The notes beneath the pieces are model-generated. The model ran no database searches and was not told the origin of the DNA. It saw nothing but the letters and a program-made list of their open reading frames with translations. From Shigella phage MK-13, in sequence record MK509462: 64,000 nucleotides of DNA. One strand, given 5' to 3'. A program made the position numbers and the translations under genes. Within the stretch, counting starts at the first letter, position 1; each line of letters opens with the position of its first letter. This document shows positions 847 to 45,940 of the stretch, one piece after another.

Positions 847-2178
847 ATGACCATCATGGCTAAGAAACTTGTTACTGAACAAATGCGCGAGCAGTGGCTG
901 CCAGTTCTTCAGAAAGAATCTGAAAGTATCCAGCCGCTTTCTGCCGAAAACGTTGCTGTCCGCCTGCTGCAAAACCAGGCTGAGTGGAACGCCAAAAACC
1001 TGGGCGAATCTGACGCTCCTGGTTCTGTGAACAACTCTGTGGGCAAATGGCAGCCAGTCCTGATCGACATGGCAAAACGTCTGGCTCCGATCAACATCGC
1101 GATGGACTTCTTCGGCGTACAGCCGCTGTCTGGTCCTGACGGTCAGATCTTTGCTCTGCGTGCTCGCCAGGGCGTCGGCGACTCATCCAACACCCAACAG
1201 TCCCGTAAAGAACTGTTCATGCAGGAAGCTGATTCCGGCTACTCTGGTGACGGTACTGTACAGGCTGGCGATCCATCTGGCTTTACTCAGGCCGAGATCG
1301 AAGGTTCCGGCGCTGGCGTGACCACCATCGGTAAAGGCATGCCAACCACCGACGCTGAACTGCTGGGCACCACCACCAACCCATGGGCGCGTGTTGGTAT
1401 CACCGTTCAGAAAGCAACCGTGACTGCGAAGTCTCGTGGCCTGTACGCTGACTACAGCCATGAACTGCGCCAGGACATGATGGCGATCCACGGCGAAGAC
1501 GTTGACAGCATCCTGTCCGACGTGATGGTAACTGAAATTCAGGCGGAAATGAACCGTGAGTTCATCCGTACCATGAACTTCAGTGCAGTACGCTTCAAAA
1601 AATTCGGCGCAAACGGCGTTGTAGACATCTCCACCGACATCTCCGGTCGTTGGGCGCTGGAAAAATGGAAGTACATGACTTTCATGCTGGAAGTTGAAGC
1701 GAACGGCATCGGTGTTGACACCCGTCGTGGTAAAGGCAACCGTGTTCTGTGTTCTCCGAACGTAGCATCCGCTCTGGCAATGTCCGGCATGCTGGATTAC
1801 GCTCCGGCGCTGCAGGAAAACACCAAGCTGGCGATCGACCCAACTGGCCAGACCTTCGCTGGTGTTCTGTCTAACGGTATGCGTGTCTACATCGACCCGT
1901 ATGCAGTAGCAGAGTACATCACCCTGGCATACAAAGGCGCGACCGCGCTGGATGCTGGTATCTTCTTCGCGCCGTATGTGCCGCTGGAAATGTACCGCAC
2001 CCAGGGTGAAACCACCTTCAGCCCACGTATGGCGTTCAAAACTCGTTACGGCATCTGCGCGAACCCATTCGTACAGATCCCAGCGAACCAGGACCCACAG
2101 GTTTACGTGACTGCCGATGGTATCGCTCAGGACAGCAACCCTTACTTCCGTAAAGGTCTGATCAAAGGTCTGTTCTAA
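847..2178 (+). CDS. major capsid protein, T4 gp23-like
   Basis: N-terminus MTI..., blocks FFGVQPLSGPDGQIFALRA and NPW...KSRGL...ELRQD...EIQAEMNRE match T4 gp23; highly biased codon usage; alternative start at 856 has better RBS spacing. Confidence 0.85.
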   Translation: MTIMAKKLVTEQMREQWLPVLQKESESIQPLSAENVAVRLLQNQAEWNAKNLGESDAPGSVNNSVGKWQPVLIDMAKRLAPINIAMDFFGVQPLSGPDGQIFALRARQGVGDSSNTQQSRKELFMQEADSGYSGDGTVQAGDPSGFTQAEIEGSGAGVTTIGKGMPTTDAELLGTTTNPWARVGITVQKATVTAKSRGLYADYSHELRQDMMAIHGEDVDSILSDVMVTEIQAEMNREFIRTMNFSAVRFKKFGANGVVDISTDISGRWALEKWKYMTFMLEVEANGIGVDTRRGKGNRVLCSPNVASALAMSGMLDYAPALQENTKLAIDPTGQTFAGVLSNGMRVYIDPYAVAEYITLAYKGATALDAGIFFAPYVPLEMYRTQGETTFSPRMAFKTRYGICANPFVQIPANQDPQVYVTADGIAQDSNPYFRKGLIKGLF

Positions 2179-3471: not shown

Positions 3472-3483
3472 AGGATCTATATC

Positions 3484-4595: not shown

Positions 4596-4877
4596 ATGAC
4601 AACTAAAGCGCAATTGATCGAAGCCCTGAATGCTGGCGCTATCACCCACTCTCGTTACAAAGTAACATTGCAGCAATTTGTTGGTATGGCCGTCGGAAAT
4701 GCCAAATTCACCCCAATCTCTTCCCCTGAAAAATTTCCAGTTAAGGCCAGCCAGCCGAAGTTTTCGGTAGTTTGCCAGGGTGAAGAAATCACCGCTCTGT
4801 GGGAATATGATAACATGTATTTTGAATGTTCTGACGGCGTGTTAGCATACCATGTGGAAGGCGAGCATTTGTTCTAA
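4596..4877 (+). CDS. hypothetical protein (93 aa)
   Basis: ORF with conserved aaggaactatatcATG context. Confidence 0.45.
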   Translation: MTTKAQLIEALNAGAITHSRYKVTLQQFVGMAVGNAKFTPISSPEKFPVKASQPKFSVVCQGEEITALWEYDNMYFECSDGVLAYHVEGEHLF

Positions 4878-9083: not shown

Positions 9084-9111
9084 ATACCCCATATATCTTG
9101 GGAGATTTTGT

Positions 9112-10988: not shown

Positions 10989-11328
10989 ATATTACTCTCG
11001 TGTGTTGGTTAACATGACATACATATTATTTCGCGTGCATGTTTAGACCAAATAAATTAATTTTGCTGTTGAATAAAAATTGCTTTCCTGTTGAACAAAT
11101 GGCGCGGTATTATACGAGTTGTGAGTGTTAACGAACAACGAGTATTTGTTTTATGAGCGAAGCGAATAGGATTAATAAAGGTTATTATCTTTAATAAAGT
11201 CCATAAATGCCGAAGGCATTTATTAATAACGCGTAGCGCAATTTGCCACTTGTTCTATAAGCACAACACAGCGATACTAGATTGCGTCAAACATGACTTG
11301 AACCCCACTATATTTTGAGGATACATAA

Positions 11329-20055: not shown

Positions 20056-20910
20056 ATGTTTCGTTTGAAATTGAACGACCAAGATGTGTTCTACAAACAC
20101 TTCACCTTCCCAGGTGGTGAGGAACATATCAAGATCCAAAAGTCTGGTATCCCTATCGGCCACGTCCAGAACGTGGCGATTGATGCTCACATCAAATCAT
20201 CAGCCGACTTCGTTGAGCTGGCACTGCTGGTTAACGCCGTGCGCGGCCTGGGTAACGTGGACCGTCTGACGACCTTCCATGCGTATATCCCTTACTTCCC
20301 GTATGCTCGCCAGGACCGCCATTGCGACTTCGGCGAGCCTCTGTCCGTGAAGTGGGCGGCTGAGTTCATCAATAGCATGAACTTTGACCGCGTGGCGATC
20401 AAAGACCCTCACAGCCATGTTGTGTCTTCTCTTATCAACAACGTCCATGTGGTCCCGCAAGATTACATCGTGCGGCAGTATCTGGGCTGGTTCATCCGTG
20501 GGAACAACGCTGTGTTGGTAGCCCCTGACGGCGGCGCGGCTAAGAAGACCGAAGCCCTCAGCCTGTCTCTGGATGGCGTTCCTGTTGTCTACGGACACAA
20601 GAACCGTGACGCCAAGACTGGTGAGATCATTGGGGTGAGTATTACAACCCCTGAACTGATCAAAGACCGTTATCTGGTGGTGGTCGATGATATCTGCGAC
20701 GGTGGGCGCACGTTCGTTGAGTTAGGCAAAGAGCTTCAGAAGCACAAGCCCAAACACATGACGCTCTTCGTTACCCATGGCATCTTCAGCAAAGGGCTTT
20801 CCGTGTTCGACGGGATCTACGATGCTGTGTATGCCGACACTGTCTGGTGGGAGAATATCACCGCCGACGGTCTTCCTTTCAAAACTGAAAATACAGGACG
20901 TGTAAAATGA
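20056..20910 (+). CDS. ribose-phosphate pyrophosphokinase (Prs)-like; candidate ADP-ribose pyrophosphokinase
   Basis: Prs signature YFPYARQDR and PRPP-binding loop VVVDDICDGGRT. Confidence 0.85.
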   Translation: MFRLKLNDQDVFYKHFTFPGGEEHIKIQKSGIPIGHVQNVAIDAHIKSSADFVELALLVNAVRGLGNVDRLTTFHAYIPYFPYARQDRHCDFGEPLSVKWAAEFINSMNFDRVAIKDPHSHVVSSLINNVHVVPQDYIVRQYLGWFIRGNNAVLVAPDGGAAKKTEALSLSLDGVPVVYGHKNRDAKTGEIIGVSITTPELIKDRYLVVVDDICDGGRTFVELGKELQKHKPKHMTLFVTHGIFSKGLSVFDGIYDAVYADTVWWENITADGLPFKTENTGRVK

Positions 20911-22571: not shown

Positions 22572-22613
22572 TAACCGAAGGGGAGGAAACTCCCCTGTTT
22601 TGAGGGAAACCTG

Positions 22614-22973
22614 ATGTCTGTGAAGATGAAAGGTGTCGAGTTCAATGCGTACTACCACGATGATGAATATTGGGTGAACGGCGCTTGGCACGACGATCAT
22701 TGCATCAAAGTCAATGGTGAATATCGCGAAGATGTAGACGCAGATATCCCCGATGACGCCGATGTGGTTATTGAATCCGGCGTGGTCTATGTTCCTGTGA
22801 ATGGCGAAAGCGGGGTGGAAGAAAAAGACATCTCACTCGTCACCCATTTCAAGAACTGGCGCAAACAGAAGAATTTCTCCTTCATTGTCGTGACGGTGGA
22901 GAAGAACAAGGTCGCCGATGTTCGCCAAGCCCTGCGGTCGATCCCTGGTGTCACCGAAGTCAAAGGTGGCTGA
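22614..22973 (+). CDS. hypothetical acidic protein (119 aa)
   Basis: ORF with GAGGGAAA RBS. Confidence 0.45.
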   Translation: MSVKMKGVEFNAYYHDDEYWVNGAWHDDHCIKVNGEYREDVDADIPDDADVVIESGVVYVPVNGESGVEEKDISLVTHFKNWRKQKNFSFIVVTVEKNKVADVRQALRSIPGVTEVKGG

Positions 22974-22975
22974 CA

Positions 22976-23145
22976 TGGCCAAACCATTTGAACGTGCGGG
23001 CGTCGACAACCTCGACCGCCGCTTTAGCCCATCGGAAACGCTGATGAGTCAGATTGAACTCAATCGCGATTTCCTGGAACACATGCTGGTCAAGCCGGAA
23101 GGTGAGGCCGAAGACAACCCTGAAGAAGGCAATAACGATGATTGA
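22976..23145 (+). CDS. hypothetical small acidic protein (56 aa)
   Basis: Short ORF tightly packed between neighbours. Confidence 0.3.
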
Positions 23146-25339
23146 ATCATTAGAATTTAAGAATGCGGTTGAGACTGCTGCCCCGTCCAACCATGTAATC
23201 GTTGTGGACATCTCTTATTCGATGTACCGTGCGCTCCCTGAAGTCCGTAAGCATCTGAAGGAGAACCTGCCTTCTCTGGTGAAACCGGAAGACACTGTGA
23301 GTGTTCTGTATTTCTCCTCCAAAGGCGACTTTGGCACAGTGTTTGCTGGTCGTCAAATCAGCGCGGCTTCCGACCTGAGTGAGATGAACAAACTGATCGA
23401 CCGCTTCCTACAACCGTCCGGATGCACCGGATTCGTGGAACCTCTGGGTCTGGCTGTAGACACCGCTCGTAGTCTGAAGAAGCCTGGTTATGTCAACAAC
23501 CTGGCATTCATGACCGACGGCTATGACAACTGCTGGCGCTCCAATGAAATCCTGGCCGTCGCCGAAACCCTGCCATTTGCTTTCGATAACATTACATTTA
23601 TCGAATACGGCTGGTACTGTAACCGCGAACTGCTGGCTCTGATGTCTGAGCGCTCCGGTGCGACCCACGTGTTTGCCGAAGGTCAGGTTGAGTATCAGGC
23701 CGAGCTGGAAACCGTGCTGAAGTCTTCAGTGCCGAAGGTGGTTGTTGATGTGCCTCTGCTATACACCCACGCCATCTATGTTGAAAACGGCGTGGCAACT
23801 GTTCTGGCAGTACAGGCAGACTCAGAGCATCCCGTTGGCCACGTGAGCATCCCTGAGAGCGTCACGAAGCTGTGGGTCGTCAATCCTAACATGATCGACC
23901 AGCTTGATGCGCTGGCGGACATCCAGGCGGCATACGTGCTGGCGTTCTATGGCGTACACATCATGGACGCCGATTTGGTATGGGCTGCCCTGAAGAAAAC
24001 GGGTGACGTTCGCTTCATCAAACAGTACAGCAACTGCTTCACCAAGCAGGACTACTCCAACATCAAGATCGATCTGGTTCAGGCTATTGTTGACGACCAG
24101 CTGCGCGGCGTTGACGGTATTGACTATGACCTGGTTCCAGCTGAAGATGCGACGACCGTCGTTGACGTGCTGACGTATCTGGCTGAAGCTGGCGTGTGTG
24201 TTGCTACCAAACATCCTATGTTCTCCTACAAGAGCATCGGTCGCGGTACGGCTCAGAAACTGGACGATACCGAAGACAAGCTGGCAGAACAGATCGCGAA
24301 CGCCGAGTCCAAAGAAGAGCGCAAAGCCCTGGCTCTCAAGCTGGCCGAGCACGAAGAGTGGAACCCGACGTTCGAACCTAACAACGATCTGGGTGTTGTG
24401 CCAATCAGCGATTTGGTCTATAACTCCGAACGCCCTAATATCAGTGTACGCACTGTCCAGCACGGCACTGTGGCGATTCCGGAGTTCGTGCAGAAGAAGT
24501 TCGGTCTGCCTGAAGAACTGGATACTTTCCAATGGCGCAACTACACCATCGTCAAAGACGGCATCATCAACGTGAAGACTCTGCCGTTCAGGGCTGATGT
24601 TGAAGTTGTAACCAATCTGTGCCAGATGGGCGTCCATGTGTTCGGTGGTCCGGAAGTGTTTGTCCTGAACCTGGAAAGCGTACCGCTGGTCAACCGCGCC
24701 ATGGTCAAGAACATCAGTGCTGCTCAGTTCTTTGCGGATAATGTCCGTCTGGAAGCCCTGAAAGGCAAGCAGAAGGTGCTGAAGTTCTTCCGTGATGAAC
24801 TGGTTGGCAAAGGTAACGCCAAAGGCCTGGCAGTACAGTACGGTGCTGAGGCGGCCGAGTTCCTGTCCTTCTACGGCATCCGTGATTACGGCTTCTCACC
24901 GAAGACCGAACTGAAGGACTCCACGGATGTCTACATGAGCCGTGAGCTGAACGTTAAGATCGCTGGAGCGTCTTCTCTGCCTAGCATCGCGGCAGTACAG
25001 AAGAAGATTGCCGAGAACAAGAAACTCAATGCGGGTGACTTGTTCATCGCCAATGCTCTGAAGGAATACGAAGCATTCGTGAAGTCTCCTGCGATCACTG
25101 CCGTGCCTGAAGCCGTACAGAAACAGCTGATCGAAAACTGGATCGACGCTGCTGCCAAGGCGGCCATCACTGAAGTCCGCGCCCTGAACAAGACGCTGTC
25201 TAAAGTGGTGTATGGTATCGTTGCTGGTCACGGCTGGTTCACCGACCTCGACCTGGAAGAGTCCACCATGGAAGTTGAAGTGGATGGTGTGAAGTACAAG
25301 GTCACTGCCGAACTGGCAGAGAAAGAGATCAAAATCTAA
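23138..25339 (+). CDS. von Willebrand factor A (vWA) domain protein (733 aa)
   Basis: MIDAS-like VVVDISYSM (D-x-S-x-S) near N-terminus followed by TDG...D elements; long C-terminal extension of unknown function. Confidence 0.65.
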   Translation: MIESLEFKNAVETAAPSNHVIVVDISYSMYRALPEVRKHLKENLPSLVKPEDTVSVLYFSSKGDFGTVFAGRQISAASDLSEMNKLIDRFLQPSGCTGFVEPLGLAVDTARSLKKPGYVNNLAFMTDGYDNCWRSNEILAVAETLPFAFDNITFIEYGWYCNRELLALMSERSGATHVFAEGQVEYQAELETVLKSSVPKVVVDVPLLYTHAIYVENGVATVLAVQADSEHPVGHVSIPESVTKLWVVNPNMIDQLDALADIQAAYVLAFYGVHIMDADLVWAALKKTGDVRFIKQYSNCFTKQDYSNIKIDLVQAIVDDQLRGVDGIDYDLVPAEDATTVVDVLTYLAEAGVCVATKHPMFSYKSIGRGTAQKLDDTEDKLAEQIANAESKEERKALALKLAEHEEWNPTFEPNNDLGVVPISDLVYNSERPNISVRTVQHGTVAIPEFVQKKFGLPEELDTFQWRNYTIVKDGIINVKTLPFRADVEVVTNLCQMGVHVFGGPEVFVLNLESVPLVNRAMVKNISAAQFFADNVRLEALKGKQKVLKFFRDELVGKGNAKGLAVQYGAEAAEFLSFYGIRDYGFSPKTELKDSTDVYMSRELNVKIAGASSLPSIAAVQKKIAENKKLNAGDLFIANALKEYEAFVKSPAITAVPEAVQKQLIENWIDAAAKAAITEVRALNKTLSKVVYGIVAGHGWFTDLDLEESTMEVEVDGVKYKVTAELAEKEIKI

Positions 25340-26083: not shown

Positions 26084-26133
26084 CGGCGGGGTATGATTAC
26101 CCCGTCTATTTGAAATGCAGGAACTATATCATG
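26084..26133 (+). repeat. intergenic hairpin cassette copy 1 (near-identical copy at 26643..26692)
   Basis: cggcggggtatgattaccccg...atttgaaa...tatatcATG; about 40 of 50 positions shared with copy 2. Confidence 0.7.
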
Positions 26134-26642: not shown

Positions 26643-26692
26643 CGGCGGGGTATGATTACCCCGCCCATTTGAAACCAAGAGACTATATCATG
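26643..26692 (+). repeat. intergenic hairpin cassette copy 2
   Basis: See copy 1. Confidence 0.7.
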
Positions 26693-31483: not shown

Positions 31484-33202
31484 GTGACAGCATTCAACCA
31501 ATATACCAAGGCGCTTGATGGCGTCGGACCAGTTAGCATAGACCGCATCAAGTCTCTTGCCACTGAGTTCTTCCCATACGACACCGCCAACCCAGGACAG
31601 ATGGAGTGCATCGTTGAAGCCGTTGATGCCCTTGTGAATAAGAAATTCAAACACGTGATCATCGAGGCTCCGACTGGTGTGGGCAAATCCCTCATTGGCA
31701 CTACCATCCATAACGTGCTTCGCCATCTGGTTCTTGAGCGCAACCCATATGGTCAGTTCCGCACGTCTATCACAACACCGACCAAAGGGTTACAAGATCA
31801 GTATGCGGCTGAAAGGGCAGTGGCGATAGACATCCTGAAGGGCAAGAAGAACTATCGTTGTCATATCAGCCCTGACCTGTATTACAATGCTATCCAGTGC
31901 CGTATGGCATGCCGAGATGGCCACTGTAATAAAAATCGTTGCCCATATGTTCAGGCTCGTCGTCTTTGGACGGACATCTCTTCTCTGCGCTGCACCAACG
32001 CCGCCATGATGGTGGAGATGTGCACGACGATCTGTATGAAGCCCGAAAACCGCGCCGATATGCTGATCCTTGACGAGTGCCATAAAATGCCCTCTACGCT
32101 CCTAGAGCACACGATCATGGAATACAGCATAAAGGCTGTGGAAGGGTTGCTTACGATCCCCGAGGGAGTGCCTATCGTGGAACTCATCAAGGATATCATC
32201 ATCCGCACAGAGAACTATGAATTGGGCAAGCTGTATTCCCTGTCTGGTGAGATGCATGCGATATTTGACGACCTGCATGACAAGGTTGAAGCCCTGCTGG
32301 AAACCCTTGAGGAACTGGTAGAGGACGAGCGCCTGACTGAAGCCCAGGTGATGAAGTTGTCGGACATCATTGACACCCTTCACAACCTCAGCGACTACTG
32401 TGGGATCATGGGGCAGACCAACGCCAGCACCTTCATCGTGCAGGAGAAGGACAAGGGCATGATTCAGTTCAAGCCTGTCATCGCATCTGATGTATCCCAG
32501 TTCGGCCTGTTCCGCAAGGGTGACTACCACGTTCACATGTCGGCGACCATTTGTGGGATTGACTCGTACGCTCGGTCACTGGGTATCCGTGAGGGCGAGT
32601 ACCACAAGATTCAGATCGGAAACCCTATCCCGATTGAGAACCGGAAAGTCAACTACATGCCCATCATGAAGATGACGGCGAACATGGGTGACTATGAGAT
32701 GAAGAAGCTGGCCGAATACGTGGATGAAATCATCGCATTCCACCCTGGGCAGTCTGGCATCATTCACACAGTAAGTTATGACCGCGCCCTGGCTCTACAG
32801 AAGTTCAGTAAGTACCGGAATATGATTCACGTTCCTCGTACTCGTAAGGCTCTAATGGACATCATGGAACACGCGTTCCGGACCAAGAAGCCTTGTGTCA
32901 TCGCCAGTCCGGCTATGGAAGAGGGGTATGACTTCAAAGGCGATTACAGCCGATTTCAGATCTTGATCAAGGTTCCATACGATTACCTTGGTGATCCTCT
33001 GGTGGCTCACGTCAACAGTGTAGACCCATCGGCGTACTTCAGGATGGCGGTACTGCGTATCGTTCAGATGTGCGGGCGTTCGGTCAGGGGCGTGAATGAC
33101 TGGGCTGCGACATACATCCTTGATTCTTCTTTTGAATCACTGATGATGCGCAACCCAGAGTTCTTCCCCGCTTGGTTTACTGATGCCGTGTTCGAGGTTT
33201 AG
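31484..33202 (+). CDS. DinG/XPD-like SF2 helicase with Cys-rich (Fe-S-type) insertion
   Basis: Walker A APTGVGKS, DECH box, eight Cys between them; GTG start with TAGGAGG RBS. Confidence 0.7.
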   Translation: MTAFNQYTKALDGVGPVSIDRIKSLATEFFPYDTANPGQMECIVEAVDALVNKKFKHVIIEAPTGVGKSLIGTTIHNVLRHLVLERNPYGQFRTSITTPTKGLQDQYAAERAVAIDILKGKKNYRCHISPDLYYNAIQCRMACRDGHCNKNRCPYVQARRLWTDISSLRCTNAAMMVEMCTTICMKPENRADMLILDECHKMPSTLLEHTIMEYSIKAVEGLLTIPEGVPIVELIKDIIIRTENYELGKLYSLSGEMHAIFDDLHDKVEALLETLEELVEDERLTEAQVMKLSDIIDTLHNLSDYCGIMGQTNASTFIVQEKDKGMIQFKPVIASDVSQFGLFRKGDYHVHMSATICGIDSYARSLGIREGEYHKIQIGNPIPIENRKVNYMPIMKMTANMGDYEMKKLAEYVDEIIAFHPGQSGIIHTVSYDRALALQKFSKYRNMIHVPRTRKALMDIMEHAFRTKKPCVIASPAMEEGYDFKGDYSRFQILIKVPYDYLGDPLVAHVNSVDPSAYFRMAVLRIVQMCGRSVRGVNDWAATYILDSSFESLMMRNPEFFPAWFTDAVFEV

Positions 33203-33966
33203 TAACCAGCGATAAACGACAGATGGCATTTGACATTCGGCTCCAGGGAAGTAACAGAGACTGTCATGCTATCTGTGTCTTGACTGAAGTCAATGGTGGC
33301 GAGAGGTTTGGTCTGAACATGGTTGTAGACGCTGTAGAACAGATCCTCGCCACGATATCCTACTTTTCCGTCGGTGTCCTGCCAATGACCCAGTGTCTCA
33401 TCGTAGACATGCACTCTGAACTCGATCATATGGAAGAGCGCCTTGGGGATGTCCTTGAGTACGCTGGTGCCAACCACAGGGATCTCAATGGAAGAGTCAT
33501 TGGAGTTCCCTTCATAGACCGAAGCCCATGCAAAGGTAGGATCACCCCCAGCAACCGGGGTACGCTTCCAGTATTGGAATTCGGGGTTGCCTGAAGCGTT
33601 CTTCTGAAGTAGAATGACCTCACCACCCGTGAAGTTCGCGGTGTCGATGTCGCCTCGCTCAAGTTCATCTGCCGGAGACCCAATAAATTTCCAGCCTTCG
33701 CGATCCAGTAAAGACTTATAATAGTCAGTGAACACGTTGCTGTCTTCTGCAGCGTTGATGGCATCTTTGAGGCCTTGGCCTGTTACCATCTCGTTGAGCT
33801 TCAACCACATGTTCTTGACGGCAGACGCTGCTGCGACTTGCCCAACAGTCCCACCTGCAGCATAATCATAGATGATATCTTCTGACTTGATAGCATCATT
33901 GATAGAAAGGAGCAATTGCTCAATCTGCGGGGCGGTGAGACTGAAACGATATGCGCGGGGTGCCAT
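33199..33966 (-). CDS. hypothetical late protein (255 aa), probably virion-associated
   Basis: Minus-strand ORF with GAGGAA RBS and an exact TATAAATA late-promoter motif about 35 nt upstream. Confidence 0.5.
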   Translation of the reverse strand: MAPRAYRFSLTAPQIEQLLLSINDAIKSEDIIYDYAAGGTVGQVAAASAVKNMWLKLNEMVTGQGLKDAINAAEDSNVFTDYYKSLLDREGWKFIGSPADELERGDIDTANFTGGEVILLQKNASGNPEFQYWKRTPVAGGDPTFAWASVYEGNSNDSSIEIPVVGTSVLKDIPKALFHMIEFRVHVYDETLGHWQDTDGKVGYRGEDLFYSVYNHVQTKPLATIDFSQDTDSMTVSVTSLEPNVKCHLSFIAGY

Positions 33967-34001: not shown

Positions 34002-34009
34002 TATTTATA
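34002..34009 (-). promoter_or_regulatory. T4-type late promoter motif TATAAATA (minus strand)
   Basis: Exact TATAAATA on minus strand upstream of 33966 start. Confidence 0.5.
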
Positions 34010-39891: not shown

Positions 39892-40506
39892 ATGACGATG
39901 ACAACGTTGAAGGCCATGGCCTTGTCCGTGACCTTTACCATTGCCAGCGGGAATGTGCACGCTTCCCAAAATACAAGTCAATGTGTTTATGATTTCTCTG
40001 AGCAACAACTTAATACGCTGGCAACTGCCTATCACATAGGCAAGACACAAGATCTTGGTTACACCCTGGCTGCCATATCTTGGCGAGAGAGCCGTGCTGG
40101 TGAAGATGTAGTGTCAATGCGCTACGGTCTCAAGGCGGCCAACATGGGAGCCTTTCAGAACAAGGTGAAGACAGTTGGCGATCGCGAAGGTTGTAAGAAT
40201 CGCAAGTGCTATGCCAATGTCGCCATCAAGTTGTTGACCGACCAAGAATATGCCGCGCAAGCCGCCCTCGATGAGATGCAGTTCTGGCTGACCTATCACA
40301 AGCAGAATGTACGCAAATCCCTCTCCTCTTACAATGCTGGCTTCGCCCGTAATCCCGCATCGAACGCTTATGCCGCTGACGTCGTGAAGAAAGCTAAATA
40401 TCTTCAGAAATGTGTGTCCTTCAAAGGCCGGACCATCTCCGAGGTAGATCCTCGGGTGATCGCCATGAACAAGCGCACGATAGAGAAACTGAAGAGGACA
40501 AGATAA
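39892..40506 (+). CDS. putative secreted protein (signal peptide, 204 aa)
   Basis: N-terminal signal peptide ...ASGNVHA; AAGGAA RBS. Confidence 0.5.
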   Translation: MTMTTLKAMALSVTFTIASGNVHASQNTSQCVYDFSEQQLNTLATAYHIGKTQDLGYTLAAISWRESRAGEDVVSMRYGLKAANMGAFQNKVKTVGDREGCKNRKCYANVAIKLLTDQEYAAQAALDEMQFWLTYHKQNVRKSLSSYNAGFARNPASNAYAADVVKKAKYLQKCVSFKGRTISEVDPRVIAMNKRTIEKLKRTR

Positions 40507-41203: not shown

Positions 41204-41251
41204 TCATTCCATAAGCAGTACGACACCAACTTGAAACGAAGGAACTATATC

Positions 41252-41623
41252 ATGAACGCGATCAAAACAGATTTCACCAAACCAGAAATGTCTATCCTTG
41301 AATCCCTTGGCTTCGGCGTTGTAACCCTCGAAGGTCAGATTGTTGACCGTGGTTTGGTAGACAACGTTGAAATGGGTATCACGACAAACGGTGATCGCGA
41401 CGCTACGATGAAAGCGGTCCACGCAAAATTCCTGGCTGAAGGTTGGAATTTCAAAAATTCCCCAGTGAATGGTTTGCCAGTTGACCACATGCACCACACG
41501 ATCTTCCTGAAAGATGGGTTCCAGATTGGATTCTACTCCATGGACGCCATCGTCAAATCCGGTAAAGAACTGATCGAGTCTAAAGATCACTACCTTTCCG
41601 TAAGTAAATCCACCTGGGCATGA
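41252..41623 (+). CDS. hypothetical protein (123 aa)
   Basis: Conserved aaggaactatatcATG context. Confidence 0.45.
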   Translation: MNAIKTDFTKPEMSILESLGFGVVTLEGQIVDRGLVDNVEMGITTNGDRDATMKAVHAKFLAEGWNFKNSPVNGLPVDHMHHTIFLKDGFQIGFYSMDAIVKSGKELIESKDHYLSVSKSTWA

Positions 41624-41700
41624 TCTGACAAGAGAGCTTCGGCTCTCTTTTGGTTTCGCTAATTAGAAGAAACCGCCATAATTCCATCAGGAGATACAAA

Positions 41701-43746
41701 ATGTCAAAGCCAAATTTCCTTCAGTTCATGCAGGAAAAGGATCAGTTGGACGAAGCGTTCAACTCCGCTCCGTATGAGCTGACCATGGGCAAGAAGAACG
41801 CAGGCGATGTGTTCTTCACCTTCATCGACGAAGATGAAAAGGAATACCGCATTCAGTTCTATACCCCTCAGGGGCTGGGCAAGAACGTTCGTCAGGTATT
41901 CATCGGCCAGAAGCGCGGCTCTGTCTATCCTGATGCCATCGCTCGCTTCAAGAACCCAATGCGCGTTATTGCTTCCATGATCGAAGCGACCAAGCAGTTC
42001 CTGGCGACCCCTCTTGGCAAGACTATCGATGGCTATGCTGTCAACTTCTCTAAGAAAGCGCTGGAACGCGGGATGACACTGATTCCTAAGATCATCCGCC
42101 AGTCCGGCCTGAAGCAGAAACTCAATGTCATGGACCTGACCTACGCGCCTGTCCCTGACCGTGGTTATGTGTGGCTGGTTCGTAAGGGTAAAGATCCGGC
42201 TCAGGTATTCGACGGTCCGAAGATGCAGGGCATCACTTGGGATGATCCAGACAAGGTTGGTGACGTTCCGGTTCAGAACAACACCCCTGATGTGGGGACT
42301 TCGTCAAACAACCCCGACTGGAACATTTCCGTCATGGCGAAATCCAACGGTATCTTCAGTTCTGTTGTGAAGGTAGTCGGTGCCAACGACGTGACTCTGA
42401 GTTCCAACGATCTGGCCATCATGGTCAAAGACGGCGCAATGGCGAAGATTGCTCGCACCCAAACCATCGCTCAGGTGACTGTGTTCAACAAAGAGTATGT
42501 TGGTCGTGGTGAAGTAGATCGCAAACTCATGGCGGCTTCTGACCGTCAGGGCATGGGTTGGGAACTGAAGTCTGGTGGTAAGATTGTGGCTTATGTTGAA
42601 TTTGGCGTTGGGGCTATACAGTCCAATCCCGACTATGAAGATAAAGGACAATGGAAATACGACAACCGCAATCAGCGCGGTAAACAACCTCAGATGGTGT
42701 ATTCTATCACAAAAGGTCGAAACACTTATTCGGCCATGCTATCTGCTCATTCTTCTGAACCAGGCACGTATGTACTTCATGGCAGCGATGGCAAATCATT
42801 TCGTGGGCCATCTGCCGATCTGATTATTGGGCAAGCTCGTTTGCCGTCTCCCCCTATTGATATGTACAACCAGTTCACACGCGATTCCAAAGAATTCTGG
42901 GCACAGATCGACATCACCGAAGGCGTGAAAGTTCCCAGCAATGGTGAGGTCATCACCAAAACCAAATCCACCTTCACCATACGTTGGAACATGGGATTTC
43001 CTCCATCAGGGCCATACGCTGGGGCAGTGCTAGAAACAACGGTACTGCGGGTGCGTGAAAATGACTACGTGATAAGCAACATTGCGTCCACTAAAAACAA
43101 AACTCTGAATGATTTGAAGTCATATGACTACAGAGGAGATATTAACTCTTTGTTGAAAGAAGAGGGCGAGCGTTATTCTTTGGCCAACTCCCAATTGTCT
43201 ACACTGACTTCTATTTCCTATAACCCAAATAAACTGGGATATGACCTTGTTTCTGTAGGGAGTTACGGGGAAGTCAGGTTCAATGGTCAAGACATCGGCC
43301 TCCCTAGTAATCGGCAGGTTGTGATCAACGCCGTAATGAAGATGAACAATGAATACGAGAAGACTGGCGGTGGTAAGAAGACTGGTGTTGACCTGGCAAC
43401 ATACGCAGGCTCCATCCGCGACAACGCTCCAAAAGGCCGCGACCTGGATTGGCAGATCTATGCAAGCCGCGATGGCCAGACCCTGAACGTGGACTGGGAT
43501 ATCACCTTCCGCCGCAACACAACTGAAGGTGCATATCGCGAGTTCAAAGCTCAGATTGACCGCGCCAACCAGTACCTGCAGACTCTGTACCAGGATGCGA
43601 AGTCCAAGGGTTACAACCCGACTGAACCAAACCTGATGACTCTGGCTCGCGCCCAGCAGTCTGACCAGTGGGCGAAAGACGACGGGGAGAGCGCATACAG
43701 TGAGTATGAGCAGTCCCTGGGCGGCAACATGCAGATTAAAATCTGA
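41701..43746 (+). CDS. large hypothetical protein (681 aa) with capsid-targeting-like N-terminus
   Basis: N-terminus MSKPNFLQFMQE resembles T4 capsid targeting sequence MKTYQEFIAE; located just upstream of internal-head-protein genes. Confidence 0.55.
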   Translation: MSKPNFLQFMQEKDQLDEAFNSAPYELTMGKKNAGDVFFTFIDEDEKEYRIQFYTPQGLGKNVRQVFIGQKRGSVYPDAIARFKNPMRVIASMIEATKQFLATPLGKTIDGYAVNFSKKALERGMTLIPKIIRQSGLKQKLNVMDLTYAPVPDRGYVWLVRKGKDPAQVFDGPKMQGITWDDPDKVGDVPVQNNTPDVGTSSNNPDWNISVMAKSNGIFSSVVKVVGANDVTLSSNDLAIMVKDGAMAKIARTQTIAQVTVFNKEYVGRGEVDRKLMAASDRQGMGWELKSGGKIVAYVEFGVGAIQSNPDYEDKGQWKYDNRNQRGKQPQMVYSITKGRNTYSAMLSAHSSEPGTYVLHGSDGKSFRGPSADLIIGQARLPSPPIDMYNQFTRDSKEFWAQIDITEGVKVPSNGEVITKTKSTFTIRWNMGFPPSGPYAGAVLETTVLRVRENDYVISNIASTKNKTLNDLKSYDYRGDINSLLKEEGERYSLANSQLSTLTSISYNPNKLGYDLVSVGSYGEVRFNGQDIGLPSNRQVVINAVMKMNNEYEKTGGGKKTGVDLATYAGSIRDNAPKGRDLDWQIYASRDGQTLNVDWDITFRRNTTEGAYREFKAQIDRANQYLQTLYQDAKSKGYNPTEPNLMTLARAQQSDQWAKDDGESAYSEYEQSLGGNMQIKI

Positions 43747-43770
43747 TCATCTAAAGCCCCTTCGGGGGCT

Positions 43771-43778
43771 TATAAATA
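43771..43778 (+). promoter_or_regulatory. T4-type late promoter motif TATAAATA
   Basis: Exact TATAAATA 26 nt upstream of internal head protein gene start, after a terminator hairpin. Confidence 0.55.
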
Positions 43779-43803
43779 ACTGAAATCCCCGAGGAGATTC
43801 AAG

Positions 43804-44373
43804 ATGAAACCGTTCCTTCAATACTTTAAAGAACAAGCTGCTCAGCCTCAGACCCATGCTGGTGTCCAGGGCAAAAGCGTATCCATCACCAAGCAAGCTG
43901 ACGGCACTCAGTGGTGCTCCGGTGCTACCGTGACCCAGATCACTCCTGACAATCAGGCGGATGTCTACAACCTGGAGTTAACCAACGGCAACACCATCAA
44001 GGTGAAGCTGACCCCAGACCAGACTCACGGTATCTCCCAAGGTCAGGAAGTCGTTGCTGTCCATGACGGCTTCGAATTCTTCTTTGGCAAGTCTGCCGAC
44101 AAAGGCCAGGTGACCGAAGCCTACGCTCAGGAACTGGCGAACATGGACAAGATGATCGGTAAAGCACTGGGTGTTGGCAAGTCTCGCAAGAGTGGTCGCA
44201 CTGAGTTCGAATACTCTGGCATCCCTGGCATCGGCAAGGCGATCACCGTGAACTTCGGTGGTGAAGATGACCCGTATGTGATCGTCACCTGCAACGGCAA
44301 GGAGCAGGATATCAGCAAGGGTAAAAACCTGGCTGCTGACATTGCCAAGTTCCTCGGCGTTAAGCCTGTGTAG
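43804..44373 (+). CDS. internal head protein-like (capsid targeting sequence)
   Basis: N-terminus MKPFLQYFKE fits CTS and prohead-protease L/I-x-E cleavage pattern; late promoter upstream. Confidence 0.6.
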   Translation: MKPFLQYFKEQAAQPQTHAGVQGKSVSITKQADGTQWCSGATVTQITPDNQADVYNLELTNGNTIKVKLTPDQTHGISQGQEVVAVHDGFEFFFGKSADKGQVTEAYAQELANMDKMIGKALGVGKSRKSGRTEFEYSGIPGIGKAITVNFGGEDDPYVIVTCNGKEQDISKGKNLAADIAKFLGVKPV

Positions 44374-44381
44374 GGGGATGT

Positions 44382-44864
44382 ATGAAAGGGTTCCAGGACT
44401 TCCTAACGGAGGTCAAGCAAGTTGGTTGGCGTTTAGTCAAGACTGAATGGACTTGTTCCCTTGTGTACGACAGCAAAGGTCCGAGCTATTCAATCTATCA
44501 AGGCAAGACTCCTGGTACGTTCTACGGGCACAAGTCCCCTAGTGGTTCGACCATCAAAGGTGAGCCACAGGAATTGGCCGAGAAGCTGAAGCTGCCCCCT
44601 ATCCCAGACGATCTACTCAAAGCATTCCTGGAGGGGGTTAAGAATCTAAAGACCGAAGGCGTGGATCACCGGGCGCTGGGGAAGCGCGGCCAGTATGACA
44701 TCACCGATGTTGGCCGCCCAACCAAAGGCGAACTGATCGACTACTACAACCGCAACGGCGACAAGCGACAAGGGAAAGTGAAGTCTGTGAACGCACAAGA
44801 CGTCATGACCCTGACAGACACCGACACGGGTGAAACCGTCAAGATGACTCTGGTCAAGCCATAA
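44382..44864 (+). CDS. internal head protein-like (capsid targeting sequence)
   Basis: N-terminus MKGFQDFLTEV, near-identical pattern to T4 IP N-terminus MKTYQEFIAEA. Confidence 0.6.
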   Translation: MKGFQDFLTEVKQVGWRLVKTEWTCSLVYDSKGPSYSIYQGKTPGTFYGHKSPSGSTIKGEPQELAEKLKLPPIPDDLLKAFLEGVKNLKTEGVDHRALGKRGQYDITDVGRPTKGELIDYYNRNGDKRQGKVKSVNAQDVMTLTDTDTGETVKMTLVKP

Positions 44865-44867
44865 AAG

Positions 44868-44889
44868 AAACCCCGCTTTTGCGGGGTTT
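44868..44889. terminator. bidirectional terminator between convergent genes
   Basis: aaaccccgcttttgcggggttt flanked by A-run and T-run. Confidence 0.7.
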
Positions 44890-44891
44890 TG

Positions 44892-45497
44892 TTATTTCAC
44901 ATACATACTGACTTGTACTTTCTTACCTTTTTCGTTTTTGACGTCCATCAGTTTGGATGCACCATTCAGTTTCATGACGGTTCCGCGTTCTTTGCCGCCA
45001 TTCGGTAACTCGTATTCAATATCTTCCCCAGGAGATGGCATACCCGCATGAGGTCCCATAACCATGGCGATCTTATAACGAGCCAAGCCGGGGCGACCGC
45101 CTTTATACGCATACCAACCACCTTCGGTCATTTCTTTCCATTGCTTGTTACCGTCAATGGAGATAAAGGAATTGCCCATACCTGATTTGACATCCAACAA
45201 GTCAATATATTTGCCTGATTTGTTGTACTTGACAGCGGTGTCAGTATCAACCTTGTCAATCATCTGGGCACTGGCAAACTGCCCATCTTTCAATCCAGAT
45301 GCTGAGATGATGTCTTTAGCACCCGTCAGGATTATCTTGCGACCGTCAGGGGTTTCAAAGGTGGCTTTGTCGCCACTAACACTAACTCGCAAGAAAGTGC
45401 CGATATTGTCTTCGGTGGATTTGCCGATCTTGTCTGCCTTGATATGAACAGACATCGGCGGCACGGCTTCGGTCAGAAAGTCTTGAAAAGTTTTCAT
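44892..45497 (-). CDS. internal head protein-like (capsid targeting sequence)
   Basis: N-terminus MKTFQDFLTEA closely matches T4 IP CTS MKTYQEFIAEA. Confidence 0.6.
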   Translation of the reverse strand: MKTFQDFLTEAVPPMSVHIKADKIGKSTEDNIGTFLRVSVSGDKATFETPDGRKIILTGAKDIISASGLKDGQFASAQMIDKVDTDTAVKYNKSGKYIDLLDVKSGMGNSFISIDGNKQWKEMTEGGWYAYKGGRPGLARYKIAMVMGPHAGMPSPGEDIEYELPNGGKERGTVMKLNGASKLMDVKNEKGKKVQVSMYVK

Positions 45498-45586
45498 TTT
45501 CGTTCTCCAGTTATATTATTCTATATAGTACCTCATGGACCCATTAACACTAAATACTAGATGGTTCACAATACAGGAAACAAATC

Positions 45587-45940
45587 ATGGTTAACGCGAG
45601 TATTTTCATCAACCGTGGACTGCTTGCTATAGCCCACTCTCATGCCCTGCACTTCGTTACAACGTCCTACGCCAAGCACAAGGCGCTCGGGGAGTTCTAC
45701 GGGGAACTGGAGGACTTGCTGGACACGTTTACCGAAGCATACATCGGTGCGGGTGGCCAGTACGTTCCGTCGTTTGAGAACATCAAGCTCTATAACCCAG
45801 ACCCTATCTCCTATGTCAACAGCGTGGTGATAGACGTCGATGGCATCTACAGGCAGTGCGACTCCCACCTTCAGAACACGCTTGATGAAATCAAGACGCT
45901 GTGCTATCAGACGATCTACAAACTGAAGCAGCTGTCGTAA
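45587..45940 (+). CDS. hypothetical protein (117 aa)
   Basis: ORF with AGGAAA RBS. Confidence 0.45.
   Translation: MVNASIFINRGLLAIAHSHALHFVTTSYAKHKALGEFYGELEDLLDTFTEAYIGAGGQYVPSFENIKLYNPDPISYVNSVVIDVDGIYRQCDSHLQNTLDEIKTLCYQTIYKLKQLS

What the first reader, a model, noticed from the sequence alone, without database searches (positions are those of the whole stretch)
41701..45497. Cluster of four putatively capsid-packaged proteins sharing a T4-type capsid targeting sequence
Seen in sequence: three small proteins start MKPFLQYFKE, MKGFQDFLTEV and MKTFQDFLTEA, and a 681-aa protein upstream starts MSKPNFLQFMQE. An exact TATAAATA late-promoter motif lies at 43771. Established knowledge: T4 internal proteins begin MKTYQEFIAEA, are cleaved by the prohead protease after the L/I-x-E site, are packed in the head and are injected with the DNA; IPI inhibits a host restriction system. 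Inference: these proteins are injected effectors, and the 681-aa member is a candidate large anti-defense or host-takeover effector of unknown activity.
Basis: partly seen in the sequence, partly recalled or inferred. Interest (0 to 1): 0.6.

Follow-up and report, generated by a model that had tools for sequence, protein, structure and literature searches.

The report
Capsid-packaged protein cluster in Vi1-like phage
A Vi1/Ag3-like (Ackermannviridae) phage carries a cluster of genes whose products bear T4-style N-terminal "address tags" that most likely load them into the phage head for delivery into the host with the DNA; the largest is built on the same carrier module as T4's injected enzyme Alt but has a different, unknown cargo.

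Summary
Four ORFs (681, 189, 160 and 201 aa; the last on the minus strand) start with the reported peptides, and TATAAATA lies at 43771-43778, 25 nt upstream of the 189-aa gene.

The window is an Agtrevirus (Ackermannviridae; the 681-aa protein is 100% identical to Shigella phage MK-13 gp123). The head machinery is T4-type: gp22-like scaffold and gp23 MCP in the window, S77/gp21 protease in the closest relative.

The 160- and 201-aa tags rank 1st and 2nd of 730 ORF N-termini against the T4 CTS. They keep the residues T4 genetics defined (aromatic 4 and 7, L8, E10). The 189-aa tag resembles the phage's own scaffold N-terminus but lacks an L/I-x-E site.

The 681-aa protein is better described as Alt-like. 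Its invariant cleavage motif is LDE18|AFN, not FMQE12. Residues 19-180 form a module found only at the N-terminus of 300-1677-aa phage proteins, some with Alt-type ART domains, and its model matches the N-terminal part of Alt from six T4-like phages.

Homologues of the 681- and 189-aa proteins were found in purified virions (LIMEstone1, Sajous1), where they were left uninterpreted or assigned to a tail "Ferrojan horse" system. Processing, head location, ejection and effector activity remain untested. Verdict: new member of a known kind, moderate interest.

The parts
41630..41649 (+). Terminator-like hairpin upstream of the 681-aa gene, closing the preceding 123-aa gene
   Evidence: No TATAAATA between it and the ATG at 41701.
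41701..41754 (+). Leader / predicted propeptide of the large protein (res 1-18, MSKPNFLQFMQEKDQLDE); predicted helix with F6 and F9, ending in the L-D-E18 gp21-type motif
   Evidence: F6, F9, Q15, L16 at least 90% conserved and E18-A19-F20-N21 invariant in 39 homologues. LDE kept in 39/39. Helix 6-19 in the model. Cleavage itself is inferred.
41755..42240 (+). Alt-type N-terminal carrier module of the large protein (res 19-180)
   Evidence: Nearly invariant across genera. 91 hits in 1.84e9 representatives, always at the extreme N-terminus of 300-1677-aa proteins. Model pLDDT 87, pTM 0.79. Foldseek matches to Alt ARTs of six T4-like phages, E 1e-6 to 4e-5, TMq 0.55-0.59.
42241..42960 (+). Variable, beta-rich middle region of the large protein (res ~181-420), subject to insertions and deletions among relatives
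   Evidence: Only 49-87 of 120 homologues cover res 201-420; protein lengths run 486-1105 aa. Beta-strand groups at 209-369 in the model. No sequence repeats detected.
42961..43746 (+). Conserved C-terminal alpha/beta region of the large protein (res ~421-681), unknown activity
   Evidence: Covered by 115 of 120 homologues. pLDDT 80-94. No Pfam, NCBIfam, PADLOC or PDB match.
43755..43770 (+). Hairpin AGCCCC-TTCG-GGGGCT after the large gene's stop codon
   Evidence: Read from the sequence.
43771..43778 (+). Exact T4-type late-promoter motif TATAAATA, 25 nt upstream of the 189-aa gene; GAGGAG ribosome-binding site at 43791-43796
   Evidence: Function as a promoter is inferred.
43804..44373 (+). 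189-aa tagged protein (MKPFLQYFKE); weak TOBE-like domain; pI 5.9 if processed
   Evidence: Homologues in 275 phage records. LIMEstone1 ORF80 and Sajous1 gp215 found in virions (PMC3296691, PMC10892097). Tag resembles the phage's own scaffold N-terminus MKPELQKLFE. No L/I-x-E site.
44382..44864 (+). 160-aa tagged protein (MKGFQDFLTE|V); mosaic of tag, middle module and C-terminal ~48-aa domain
   Evidence: Rank 2 of 730 against the T4 CTS. Full-length form in only 3 phage records, C-terminal domain in 172. JA15 has a 79-aa form made of tag plus C-terminal domain; SFP10 has the middle module fused to the 189-aa protein's N-terminal half.
44867..44890 (.). Bidirectional terminator between the convergent 160-aa and 201-aa genes
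44892..45497 (-). 201-aa tagged protein (MKTFQDFLTE|A), a rare accessory gene; basic (pI 9.3 when mature); shares the C-terminal domain with the 160-aa protein
   Evidence: Rank 1 of 730 against the T4 CTS. Only 13 phage records and 5 clusters in 5.8e9 proteins. M1, K2, F4, L8, E10, A11 invariant and F/Y at 7 across homologues 60-99% identical. C-terminal similarity to the 160-aa protein E=7e-5.
45498..45586 (.). Divergent intergenic region between the 201-aa gene (-) and the DUF5856 gene (+); no TATAAATA
45587..45940 (+). DUF5856 (Dps/ferritin-like) protein, untagged; a virion protein in relatives and part of the same virion-protein island
   Evidence: Pfam DUF5856 E=9e-30. LIMEstone1 ORF78 and Sajous1 gp217 in virions (PMC3296691, PMC10892097).
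40506..41144 (+). DUF7270 protein, untagged; a virion protein in relatives, at the upstream edge of the island
   Evidence: Pfam DUF7270 E=4e-113. LIMEstone1 ORF85 in virions (PMC3296691).
1..764 (+). 3' part of the gp22-type scaffold gene (5'-truncated by the window edge); the presumed docking partner of the tags
   Evidence: The Gloob orthologue is Pfam T4_CASP, E=5e-44, and starts MKPELQKLFE|G.
847..2178 (+). gp23-type major capsid protein with a predicted maturation site NLGE54|SDAP
   Evidence: Pfam Gp23 E=5e-124, with the domain starting at residue 65.

Best explanation
The cluster encodes internal head proteins of an Ackermannviridae phage that are loaded by the T4 mechanism. Proposed steps follow. 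(1) Late in infection the proteins are made; only the 189/160-aa operon has a recognisable T4-type late promoter. (2) A short N-terminal amphipathic tag, with aromatic residues at positions 4 and 7 (6 and 9 in the large protein), docks each protein onto the gp22-type scaffolding core before the gp23 shell closes. (3) The S77 (gp21-type) prohead protease cuts after Glu: L-T-E10 in the 160- and 201-aa proteins and L-D-E18 in the 681-aa protein. Cleavage of the 189-aa protein (Y-F-K-E10) is uncertain. (4) The mature proteins stay in the head with the DNA and leave with it at infection. The 681-aa protein additionally has an Alt-type N-terminal carrier module (res 19-180) directly after the cleavage site. 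In relatives the same module carries Alt-type ART domains or other long cargo; here it carries a beta-rich variable region and a conserved alpha/beta domain of unknown activity. The small proteins are exchangeable cassettes of tag plus module. Shown: the sequences, tag statistics, conservation patterns, T4-type machinery, module distribution, the fold match to Alt, and virion presence of homologues (published MS). Inferred: head (not tail) location, cleavage at the named sites, ejection, and any effector activity.
For: Tags: ranks 1 and 2 of 730 against the T4 CTS; 4 observed against 0.018 expected for the strict pattern; only these genes match over all start codons. Only positions 1, 2, 4, 8, 10 and 11 (plus an aromatic at 7) are fixed in 201-aa homologues, covering the T4 functional positions (PMC9026906). 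The 160- and 201-aa tags differ at 10 of 33 nt, with synonymous differences in six of nine identical codons. Tags are lineage-specific and shared between unrelated proteins. Real T4 tags MKTYQEFIAE|A and MKTFKEF...ITE|A were read from NC_000866. Machinery: Peptidase_S77 E=2e-30, T4_CASP E=5e-44, Gp23 E=5e-124; scaffold N-terminus MKPELQKLFE|G. Virions: LIMEstone1 ORF80, 81 and 82 (ORF81 at 55% coverage and 23 peptides) and Sajous1 gp214-217 (196, 32, 20 and 10 spectra). LIMEstone1 ORF81 (375 aa) is a structural homologue of the large protein. Tag on effector domains: Gloob gp182 MKTFLQYLQE|S is ART-PolyVal at 46.6 bits; K476 MASFKLIFE|A is InPase, E=3e-35. Both domain types are predicted injected effectors (PMC5512222). 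Large protein: invariant E18-A19-F20-N21; junction [LIV]xE|[AS][FL][ND]SxPY kept across 80+ distant relatives with leaders of 4-50 aa; module always N-terminal; 5 of 50 distant members carry ADPrib_exo_Tox; P0183 bridges to T4 Alt; N-module model matches six Alt proteins. T4 Alt is experimentally cleaved at ITE-6|LFD (PMC5694885).
Against: There is no direct evidence of N-terminal processing, head location or ejection for any of these proteins; the stored part of the Sajous1 peptide table is cut before the relevant proteins. The 189- and 681-aa tags are not distinguishable from background by similarity to the T4 tag alone (z about 2.5). The 189-aa protein lacks any L/I-x-E motif and is acidic to neutral. 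Sequence-level similarity of the N-module to T4 Alt is marginal (8.2 bits; hhalign probability 0.3), so the link rests on predicted structures and a bridging protein. Only one of the three transcription units has a T4-type late promoter. DUF5856 and DUF7270, co-located virion proteins, carry no tag, so the island is not uniformly CTS-dependent. The 160- and 201-aa proteins themselves have never been detected in virions.
Confidence: 0.75

Rival explanations
1. Tail-associated 'Ferrojan horse' entry module (the published interpretation for Sajous1 gp214-217). The large protein is a tail completion protein, the 189-aa protein binds molybdate or metal (TOBE/BiMOP), and the DUF5856 ferritin-like protein displays iron on the tail to exploit siderophore uptake.
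For: The proteins are in purified virions; Phyre2 gave ferritin and BiMOP hints (PMC10892097). Pfam gives a weak TOBE hit for the 189-aa protein (E=0.0098, below cutoff) and DUF5856 for the ferritin-like protein. MS of whole virions cannot separate head from tail.
Against: The authors found no dependence on this pathway in the host they tested. Nothing in the sequences indicates a tail location. Three proteins carry T4 CTS-type tags and the large one an Alt-type module with a gp21 site, features known only for head-internal proteins. The 'tail completion' label has no family support.
Confidence: 0.05
2. The proteins are head-internal but structural rather than effectors. They would be core or DNA-condensing components that assist prohead assembly, DNA packaging or ejection, as proposed for the basic T4 IPs, with no specific host target.
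For: The large protein is a family-wide core gene (359 phage records) with an almost invariant N-module. It is among the most abundant virion proteins (23 peptides in LIMEstone1; 196 spectra in Sajous1). The mature 681-, 160- and 201-aa proteins are basic, pI 9.0-9.3. No enzymatic domain is detectable.
Against: The cargo parts are hypervariable or sporadic: lengths of 486-1105 aa, the 201-aa gene in 13 records, and the 160-aa protein mosaic. That pattern is typical of arms-race genes, not structural parts. The same tag and module carry bona fide effector domains in relatives (ART-PolyVal, InPase, ADPrib_exo_Tox).
Confidence: 0.3
3. The shared N-termini are not targeting signals. They reflect common ancestry, recombination at gene 5' ends, or translation-initiation constraints, and virion detection of homologues is adventitious.
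For: The 189- and 681-aa tags are weak matches to the T4 tag. The 160- and 201-aa proteins share a C-terminal domain and so are partly paralogous. A different 22-nt initiation-region element is repeated elsewhere in the window, showing that 5' elements can be shared.
Against: Conservation is at the peptide level with synonymous differences and is concentrated on the T4 functional positions. The upstream DNA and ribosome-binding sites differ between the genes. Unrelated proteins (ART, InPase, TOBE-like) carry the tag. High MS coverage (55%, 23 peptides) argues against contamination.
Confidence: 0.05

Closest known systems
T4 internal proteins IPI, IPII, IPIII with their capsid targeting sequence (Mullaney & Black 1996; reviewed in PMC3012670 and PMC9026906)
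   Same: A ~10-residue N-terminal tag M-K-x-[F/Y]-x-x-[F/Y]-[L/I]-x-E followed by A, V or S. Aromatic residues at the targeting positions 4 and 7, and L/I and E at the processing positions 8 and 10. Small basic proteins (160- and 201-aa). Otherwise unrelated and sporadically distributed cargo. Genes embedded in an early-gene region not far from the endolysin gene. Same protease, scaffold and MCP families.
   Different: A different virus family (Ackermannviridae, ~50% GC). No detectable homology of the mature parts to any T4 IP (best is PHROG 'internal head protein' at E=0.06). The 189-aa member has F instead of L/I at position 8 and is not basic. Modules are shuffled between carriers. Packaging, cleavage and ejection are not demonstrated.
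T4 Alt, the packaged and injected ADP-ribosyltransferase, cleaved by gp21 at ITE-6 and LTE-619 (PMC5694885)
   Same: The 681-aa protein has a short leader ending in [L/I]-x-E, followed directly by a ~160-residue alpha/beta module whose model matches the N-terminal part of Alt proteins from six T4-like phages. Distant members of the same module family carry the Alt-type ADPrib_exo_Tox domain. Similar overall size (681 against 682 aa).
   Different: No ART domain or any recognisable catalytic domain. Longer leader (18 against 6 residues) containing a CTS-like F-x-x-F motif. Apparently much more abundant in virions than an Alt-like minor component would be (the ~40 copies per head for Alt is from my own knowledge). 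No conserved C-terminal cleavage motif. Sequence similarity to T4 Alt itself is marginal.
Polyvalent proteins and MuF-fused effectors of phages (Iyer et al. 2017, PMC5512222)
   Same: The concept of a head-incorporation module fused to variable effector cargo that is injected with the DNA. The N-module family includes proteins up to 1677 aa, and BFVD matches include deaminase-, Zeta-toxin- and ParB-bearing phage proteins. ART-PolyVal and InPase domains occur with the tag in this phage family.
   Different: The carrier here is the Alt-type module or a 10-residue tag, not MuF or portal. The window's large protein has no recognised effector domain. The ART and InPase proteins are solo, not multidomain.
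Published 'Ferrojan horse' operon of Vi01-like phages (PMC10892097)
   Same: It is the same gene set: Sajous1 gp214-217 correspond to the large protein, the 189-aa protein, a small protein and DUF5856.
   Different: That work places the proteins on the tail and proposes iron-mediated entry. The present evidence points to head-internal, protease-processed proteins.

Membership tests
T4-type CTS-bearing internal head proteins | N-terminal ~10-residue tag with targeting residues (aromatic) at positions 4 and 7 | tested here: met
   F4/F7 in the 160- and 201-aa proteins, F4/Y7 in the 189-aa protein, F6/F9 (shifted by 2) in the 681-aa protein. F4 invariant and F/Y7 kept in 201-aa homologues. F6/F9 at least 90% conserved in 39 large-protein homologues. 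T4 rule from PMC9026906.
T4-type CTS-bearing internal head proteins | gp21 processing motif L/I-x-E at the end of the tag (positions 8-10) | tested here: inconclusive
   Met for the 160- and 201-aa proteins (L-T-E10). Not met for the 189-aa protein (F-K-E10; no L/I-x-E anywhere). For the 681-aa protein the first site is M-Q-E12 and is not conserved, while L-D-E18 is conserved 39/39.
T4-type CTS-bearing internal head proteins | Phage encodes a gp21-family prohead protease and a gp22-type scaffolding core | tested here: met
   Gloob (98% identical relative): Peptidase_S77 E=2e-30 and T4_CASP E=5e-44. The scaffold 3' part and the gp23 MCP are in the window itself. The protease gene lies just outside the window.
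T4-type CTS-bearing internal head proteins | Protein present in mature virions, inside the head | not testable with these tools
   Published MS finds homologues of the 681- and 189-aa proteins in purified virions (PMC3296691 ORF80-82; PMC10892097 gp214-216). No data separate head from tail, and there are no data for the 160- or 201-aa proteins themselves.
T4-type CTS-bearing internal head proteins | Tag removed by the protease in vivo; mature protein ejected with the DNA | not testable with these tools
   The peptide-level table of PMC10892097 is truncated before these proteins. No N-terminal sequencing was found in the literature searched.
Alt-like packaged proteins | Alt-type N-terminal domain directly after a short gp21-cleaved leader | tested here: met
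   The N-module model (pLDDT 87) matches six Alt-family proteins, E 1e-6 to 4e-5, TMq 0.55-0.59. The junction [LI]xE|[AS][FL][ND] is conserved and parallels Alt's ITE-6|LFD. Sequence-only support is weak.
Alt-like packaged proteins | ADP-ribosyltransferase catalytic domain (Pfam ADPrib_exo_Tox, R-S-E type) | tested here: not met
   No Pfam hit in the 681-aa protein at E<=1. T4 Alt has the domain at residues 374-614. 5 of 50 distant N-module proteins have it. So the protein works like an Alt-type carrier but is not an Alt enzyme.
Alt-like packaged proteins | C-terminal propeptide removed at an L-x-E site (LTE-619 in T4 Alt) | tested here: inconclusive
   The only downstream motifs are ITE407 (kept in 6/38) and LKE487 (kept in 22/38); there is none near the C-terminus.
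Polyvalent proteins (Iyer et al. 2017) | Two or more disparate effector domains in one polypeptide | tested here: not met
   No recognised effector domain in any of the four proteins. Only weak GNAT-like fold hints below significance.
'Ferrojan horse' tail-entry system | Iron-loaded ferritin-like protein on the tail; infection depends on siderophore uptake | not testable with these tools
   The original authors saw no dependence in the host they tested. Sequence features point to the head instead.

The most novel reading that the evidence does not exclude
The Alt N-terminal domain is a general, previously undescribed cargo-delivery module of T4-related phages. It is always placed directly behind a gp21 cleavage site and is fused to interchangeable cargo (ART, other enzymes, or the hypervariable region seen here). 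Together with the 10-residue tags it would form a cassette system in which modules are exchanged between carriers, for example the 189/160-aa chimera in SFP10 joined right after QVTE|A. In Ackermannviridae the abundant large protein and the sporadic small ones would then be early-acting counter-defence factors, for example inhibitors of modification-dependent nucleases that attack the family's hypermodified thymidine DNA, by analogy with T4 IPI* and GmrSD.
Probability: 0.3. Interest if true: 0.7.

Novelty: new member of a known kind. Interest (0 to 1): 0.5.

Why it matters
First, it gives a mechanistic reading to a virion-protein island that three proteomic studies of Ackermannviridae either left unexplained or assigned to a tail "Ferrojan horse" system.

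Second, it nominates specific, testable candidates for proteins delivered with the DNA, in a phage family widely used for biocontrol and diagnostics of Salmonella, E. coli O157, Shigella, Klebsiella and Dickeya. Host range on defence-rich strains matters in those applications.

Third, the tags could be used, as in T4, to package foreign proteins into Ackermannviridae heads.

Fourth, recognising the Alt N-terminal region as a widespread carrier module with a conserved protease site would help find injected effectors in many uncultured T4-related phages.

Tried and rejected
- Peptide-level test of N-terminal processing in the Sajous1 MS supplement. The stored file is cut before the relevant proteins, and no tag or N-terminal strings were found.
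- JA15/XF4 'unknown structural protein' labels are transferred annotation, not new MS. The phiD3 proteome paper gives no N-terminal data. The S117 tailocin paper has no proteomics.
- The fifth regex hit, at 21084 (MTWFHELFDEA), is an internal ATG of NAMPT.
- Internal repeats in the large protein, or modules shared with the small proteins. No significant sequence repeats were found; only the C-terminal domain common to the 160- and 201-aa proteins is real.
- PDB sequence and fold searches for the large protein gave nothing significant. GNAT-like hints (probability up to 0.96, TM 0.35-0.40) were not pursued as a functional claim.
- hhalign of the shallow homologue alignment against T4 Alt was not significant, and the same holds for BLASTP. 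The Alt link came only from a diverse profile, a bridging protein and the fold search.
- The word-index search with the Vibrio N-domain returned only 3 proteins.
- TATAAATA is not a general late signal in this phage: it is absent upstream of the MCP gene and of the 681- and 201-aa genes.
- No transcriptome of this family was found. No NCBIfam or PADLOC hits.

Full report
**What is there**

The four ORFs are real and start as reported:

| Coordinates | Strand | Length | N-terminus |
|---|---|---|---|
| 41701-43746 | + | 681 aa | MSKPNFLQFMQE |
| 43804-44373 | + | 189 aa | MKPFLQYFKE |
| 44382-44864 | + | 160 aa | MKGFQDFLTEV |
| 44892-45497 | − | 201 aa | MKTFQDFLTEA |

The 201-aa gene is on the minus strand. 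It converges on the 160-aa gene across a bidirectional terminator at 44867-44890.

TATAAATA is at 43771-43778. It follows a hairpin (43755-43770) and lies 25 nt upstream of the 189-aa ATG. The motif occurs only twice in the window. The other copy (34002-34009, minus strand) precedes a 255-aa gene (33199-33966) in an early-gene region. That gene's LIMEstone1 counterpart appears, by size, to be a virion protein. The MCP gene and the 681- and 201-aa genes lack the motif.

**Genome identity**

The region is 98% identical to Shigella phage Gloob, and related to Ag3, FEC14, EspM4VN and Dickeya Limestoneviruses. The 681-aa protein is 100% identical to gp123 of Shigella phage MK-13. So this is an Agtrevirus of the T4-related family Ackermannviridae.

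The cluster lies among replication and recombination genes, between gp46/47 and primase, endolysin and Nrd genes. The window starts inside the gp22-type scaffold gene and contains the gp23 MCP at 847-2178. In Gloob the adjacent gene is a Peptidase_S77 (T4 gp21) protease, E=2e-30. The scaffold is T4_CASP (E=5e-44) and starts MKPELQKLFE|G. The MCP has an NLGE54|S site just before the Gp23 domain.

**Is the tag more than chance?**

- A post-hoc strict pattern gives 4 hits against 0.018 expected.
- The fairer test scores every ATG ORF N-terminus against the T4 tag, which I read from the T4 genome itself: ipII and ipIII begin MKTYQEFIAE|A, and ipI begins MKTFKEFTSTTTPVSTITE|A.
- In that test the 201- and 160-aa proteins rank 1st and 2nd of 730 (z about 7 and 5). 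The 189- and 681-aa proteins are only about 2.5 sd above background.
- Over all 1,816 ATG/GTG/TTG starts, only these four plus an internal TTG match aromatic-xx-aromatic-hydrophobic-x-E.
- A fifth loose hit, at 21084, is an internal ATG of NAMPT.

**Does the tag behave like a CTS?**

T4 genetics places targeting at residues 4 and 7 and processing at residues 8 and 10. Asp at position 10 blocks cleavage but not targeting (PMC9026906).

- In five 201-aa homologues (60-99% identical) the invariant tag positions are M1, K2, F4, L8, E10 and A11, with F/Y at position 7.
- The 160- and 201-aa tags share 9 of 11 residues but differ at 10 of 33 nt, with synonymous differences in six of the nine identical codons. 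Their upstream regions are unrelated.
- The tag is shared by otherwise unrelated proteins and co-varies by lineage. In Vibrio phage K476 a 749-aa large-protein homologue starts MASFKQLVE and a neighbouring 206-aa protein starts MASFKLIFE|A.
- In the complete Gloob genome the strict pattern occurs only in the four cluster genes and in gp182 (MKTFLQYLQE|S). Gloob gp5 (MKGFQDFLED) is a further T4-like N-terminus.
- gp182 is an ART-PolyVal ADP-ribosyltransferase (46.6 bits against a cutoff of 31.2). The K476 206-aa protein is an InPase domain protein (E=3e-35).
- Both domain types were independently predicted to be virion-packaged, injected effectors (PMC5512222).
- The 189-aa tag resembles the phage's own scaffold N-terminus (6 of 10 identical), but the protein has no L/I-x-E site. 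Its processing is therefore doubtful.

**The large protein**

Among 120 homologues the lengths range from 486 to 1105 aa. Residues 1-200 and 420-681 are covered by nearly all of them, and the middle is variable.

The first 'FMQE' site is lost in several homologues (FLIK, FLST, FVDQ, FMQD). Invariance begins exactly at E18-A19-F20-N21, and L-x-E18 is kept in 39 of 39.

An exhaustive HMMER search with residues 19-205 found 91 representatives. In every one the domain starts 8-55 residues from the N-terminus, on proteins of 300-1677 aa. It is preceded by leaders of 4-50 residues that end in [L/I/V]-x-E, followed by [A/S]-[F/L]-[N/D]-S-x-P-Y.

Five of 50 distant members carry ADPrib_exo_Tox, the catalytic domain of T4 Alt. 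One of them, P0183, matches the window module at E=1.5e-14 and the T4 Alt ART domain at E=4e-15.

A confident model of the module (pLDDT 87, pTM 0.79) matches the N-terminal part of Alt-family proteins from six T4-like phages: phiAS5, 50AhydR13PP, HY03, CF1, Henu6 and SP18. The values are E=1e-6 to 4e-5, probability 1.0, TMq 0.55-0.59. It also matches deaminase- and ParB-bearing phage proteins.

Sequence-only comparison with T4 Alt is marginal but in register (8.2 bits).

T4 Alt is experimentally cleaved by gp21 at ITE-6|LFD and at LTE-619 (PMC5694885). The first site lines up with the family junction. The 681-aa protein is therefore an Alt-architecture protein without the ART domain.

Its cargo has no match in Pfam, NCBIfam, PADLOC or the PDB.

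**Virion evidence from the literature**

[quoted passage not shown] ORF81 had 55% coverage and 23 peptides (PMC3296691).
- By size, order and BFVD match these are DUF5856, the 189-aa protein, the large protein (split in two) and DUF7270.
- In Sajous1, gp214 ('tail completion protein', 196 spectra), gp215 (32), gp216 (20) and gp217 (ferritin-like, 10) were found and interpreted as a tail 'Ferrojan horse' system. No dependence on that pathway was seen (PMC10892097).
- The same group's 'putative tail completion protein' in FrontPhageNews is a homologue of the large protein.
- No paper in the library links a capsid targeting sequence, internal proteins or ejection proteins with Ackermannviridae.

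**Evolutionary behaviour**

| Protein | Phage records with a match |
|---|---|
| Large protein | 359 (including Vibrio and Aeromonas phages) |
| 189-aa protein | 275 |
| C-terminal domain of the 160-aa protein | 172 (full-length form in 3) |
| 201-aa protein | 13, and only 5 clusters among 5.8 billion proteins |

JA15 has a 79-aa gene made of the tag plus the C-terminal domain. SFP10 has a chimera: residues 1-106 of the 189-aa protein joined, right after QVTE|A, to a module like residues 15-83 of the 160-aa protein. This cassette-like mosaicism resembles the diverse CTS-bearing internal proteins of T-even phages (PMC3012670).

**Conclusion**

The capsid-targeting interpretation is well supported for the 160- and 201-aa proteins. 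It is reasonably supported for the 189-aa protein (targeting yes, cleavage uncertain). For the 681-aa protein it is supported in modified form: an Alt-type carrier cleaved at LDE18.

Head location, processing, ejection and any anti-defence activity are inferences. The main rival that keeps the head location is a structural or DNA-associated role rather than a specific effector role. The published tail 'Ferrojan horse' reading is unlikely.

This is a new member of a known kind of system. The added points of interest are the generalisation of the Alt N-terminal module as a cargo carrier and the reinterpretation of published proteomics.

Noticed in passing
window 3465-3486, 4255-4276, 4577-4598, 26112-26133, 26671-26692, 41233-41254 (all + strand): A 22-nt element GAAnnGAAGGAACTATATCATG occurs six times (3 or fewer mismatches; 0 expected by chance). 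Each copy ends in an ATG; the four I checked are start codons of small ORFs of unknown function (for example 3484-3927, 4274-4540, 4596-4877, 41252-41623). It looks like a shared 5'UTR or translation-initiation element for one class of genes.
   Followed up: no
window 39892-40506 (+): The gene annotated 'RegB endoribonuclease' in relatives looks mis-annotated. Pfam gives SLT lytic transglycosylase (20.5 bits, just under the 21.3 cutoff), and the N-terminus MTMTTLKAMALSVTFTIASGNVHA|SQ resembles a Sec signal peptide. Its Sajous1 counterpart (gp211) gave 31 spectra in virions.
   Followed up: partly
L006:4160-4618 (Shigella phage Gloob gp182; outside this window): A 152-aa protein annotated 'N-acetyltransferase' starts MKTFLQYLQE|SEHP and is a Pfam ART-PolyVal ADP-ribosyltransferase (46.6 bits). 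It is a CTS-tagged mini-ART and a functional analogue of T4 Alt.
   Followed up: partly
L005:6315-6545 (Gloob gp5; outside this window): A 76-aa acidic protein starts MKGFQDFLED, with Asp at position 10. In T4 that substitution allows capsid targeting but blocks cleavage.
   Followed up: no
window 34002-34009 (-) and 33199-33966 (-): The only other exact TATAAATA in the window lies ~36 nt upstream of a 255-aa minus-strand gene (PHROG 3833, unknown function) between helicase and RNase H genes. By size it matches LIMEstone1 ORF93, an unknown virion protein with 41% MS coverage.
   Followed up: partly
L007:5218-7641, 7995-10244, 10307-10771, 10836-11456 (Vibrio phage K476): The Vibrio relative has two tandem paralogues of the large protein (leaders ending IIAE|AFNQ and LLTE|AFNS), an untagged 154-aa protein with a YHGT motif reminiscent of ARTs (no Pfam hit), and a tagged InPase protein.
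   Followed up: partly
L008:7875-10334 (Aeromonas phage phiA8-29): The annotated start of the large-protein homologue is probably too far upstream. An internal Met gives MGRSFKALLESNSSPGVQAIVE|SFDTTPY, which fits the family leader plus junction. The gene lies two genes downstream of DNA ligase, as alt does in T4.
   Followed up: no
window 43804-44373, residues 102-106 (QVTE|A): The point where the SFP10 chimera switches from the 189-aa protein to a 160-aa-like module falls directly after a V-T-E|A motif. This is a possible internal protease site and a recombination boundary.
   Followed up: partly
window ~20900-23500 (+): NAMPT (the 21084-22571 ORF is part of it), together with a ribose-phosphate pyrophosphokinase gene annotated next to it in Gloob (gp119/gp120), form an NAD-salvage pair. 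From my own knowledge, such pairs have been linked to countering NAD-depleting defences.
   Followed up: no
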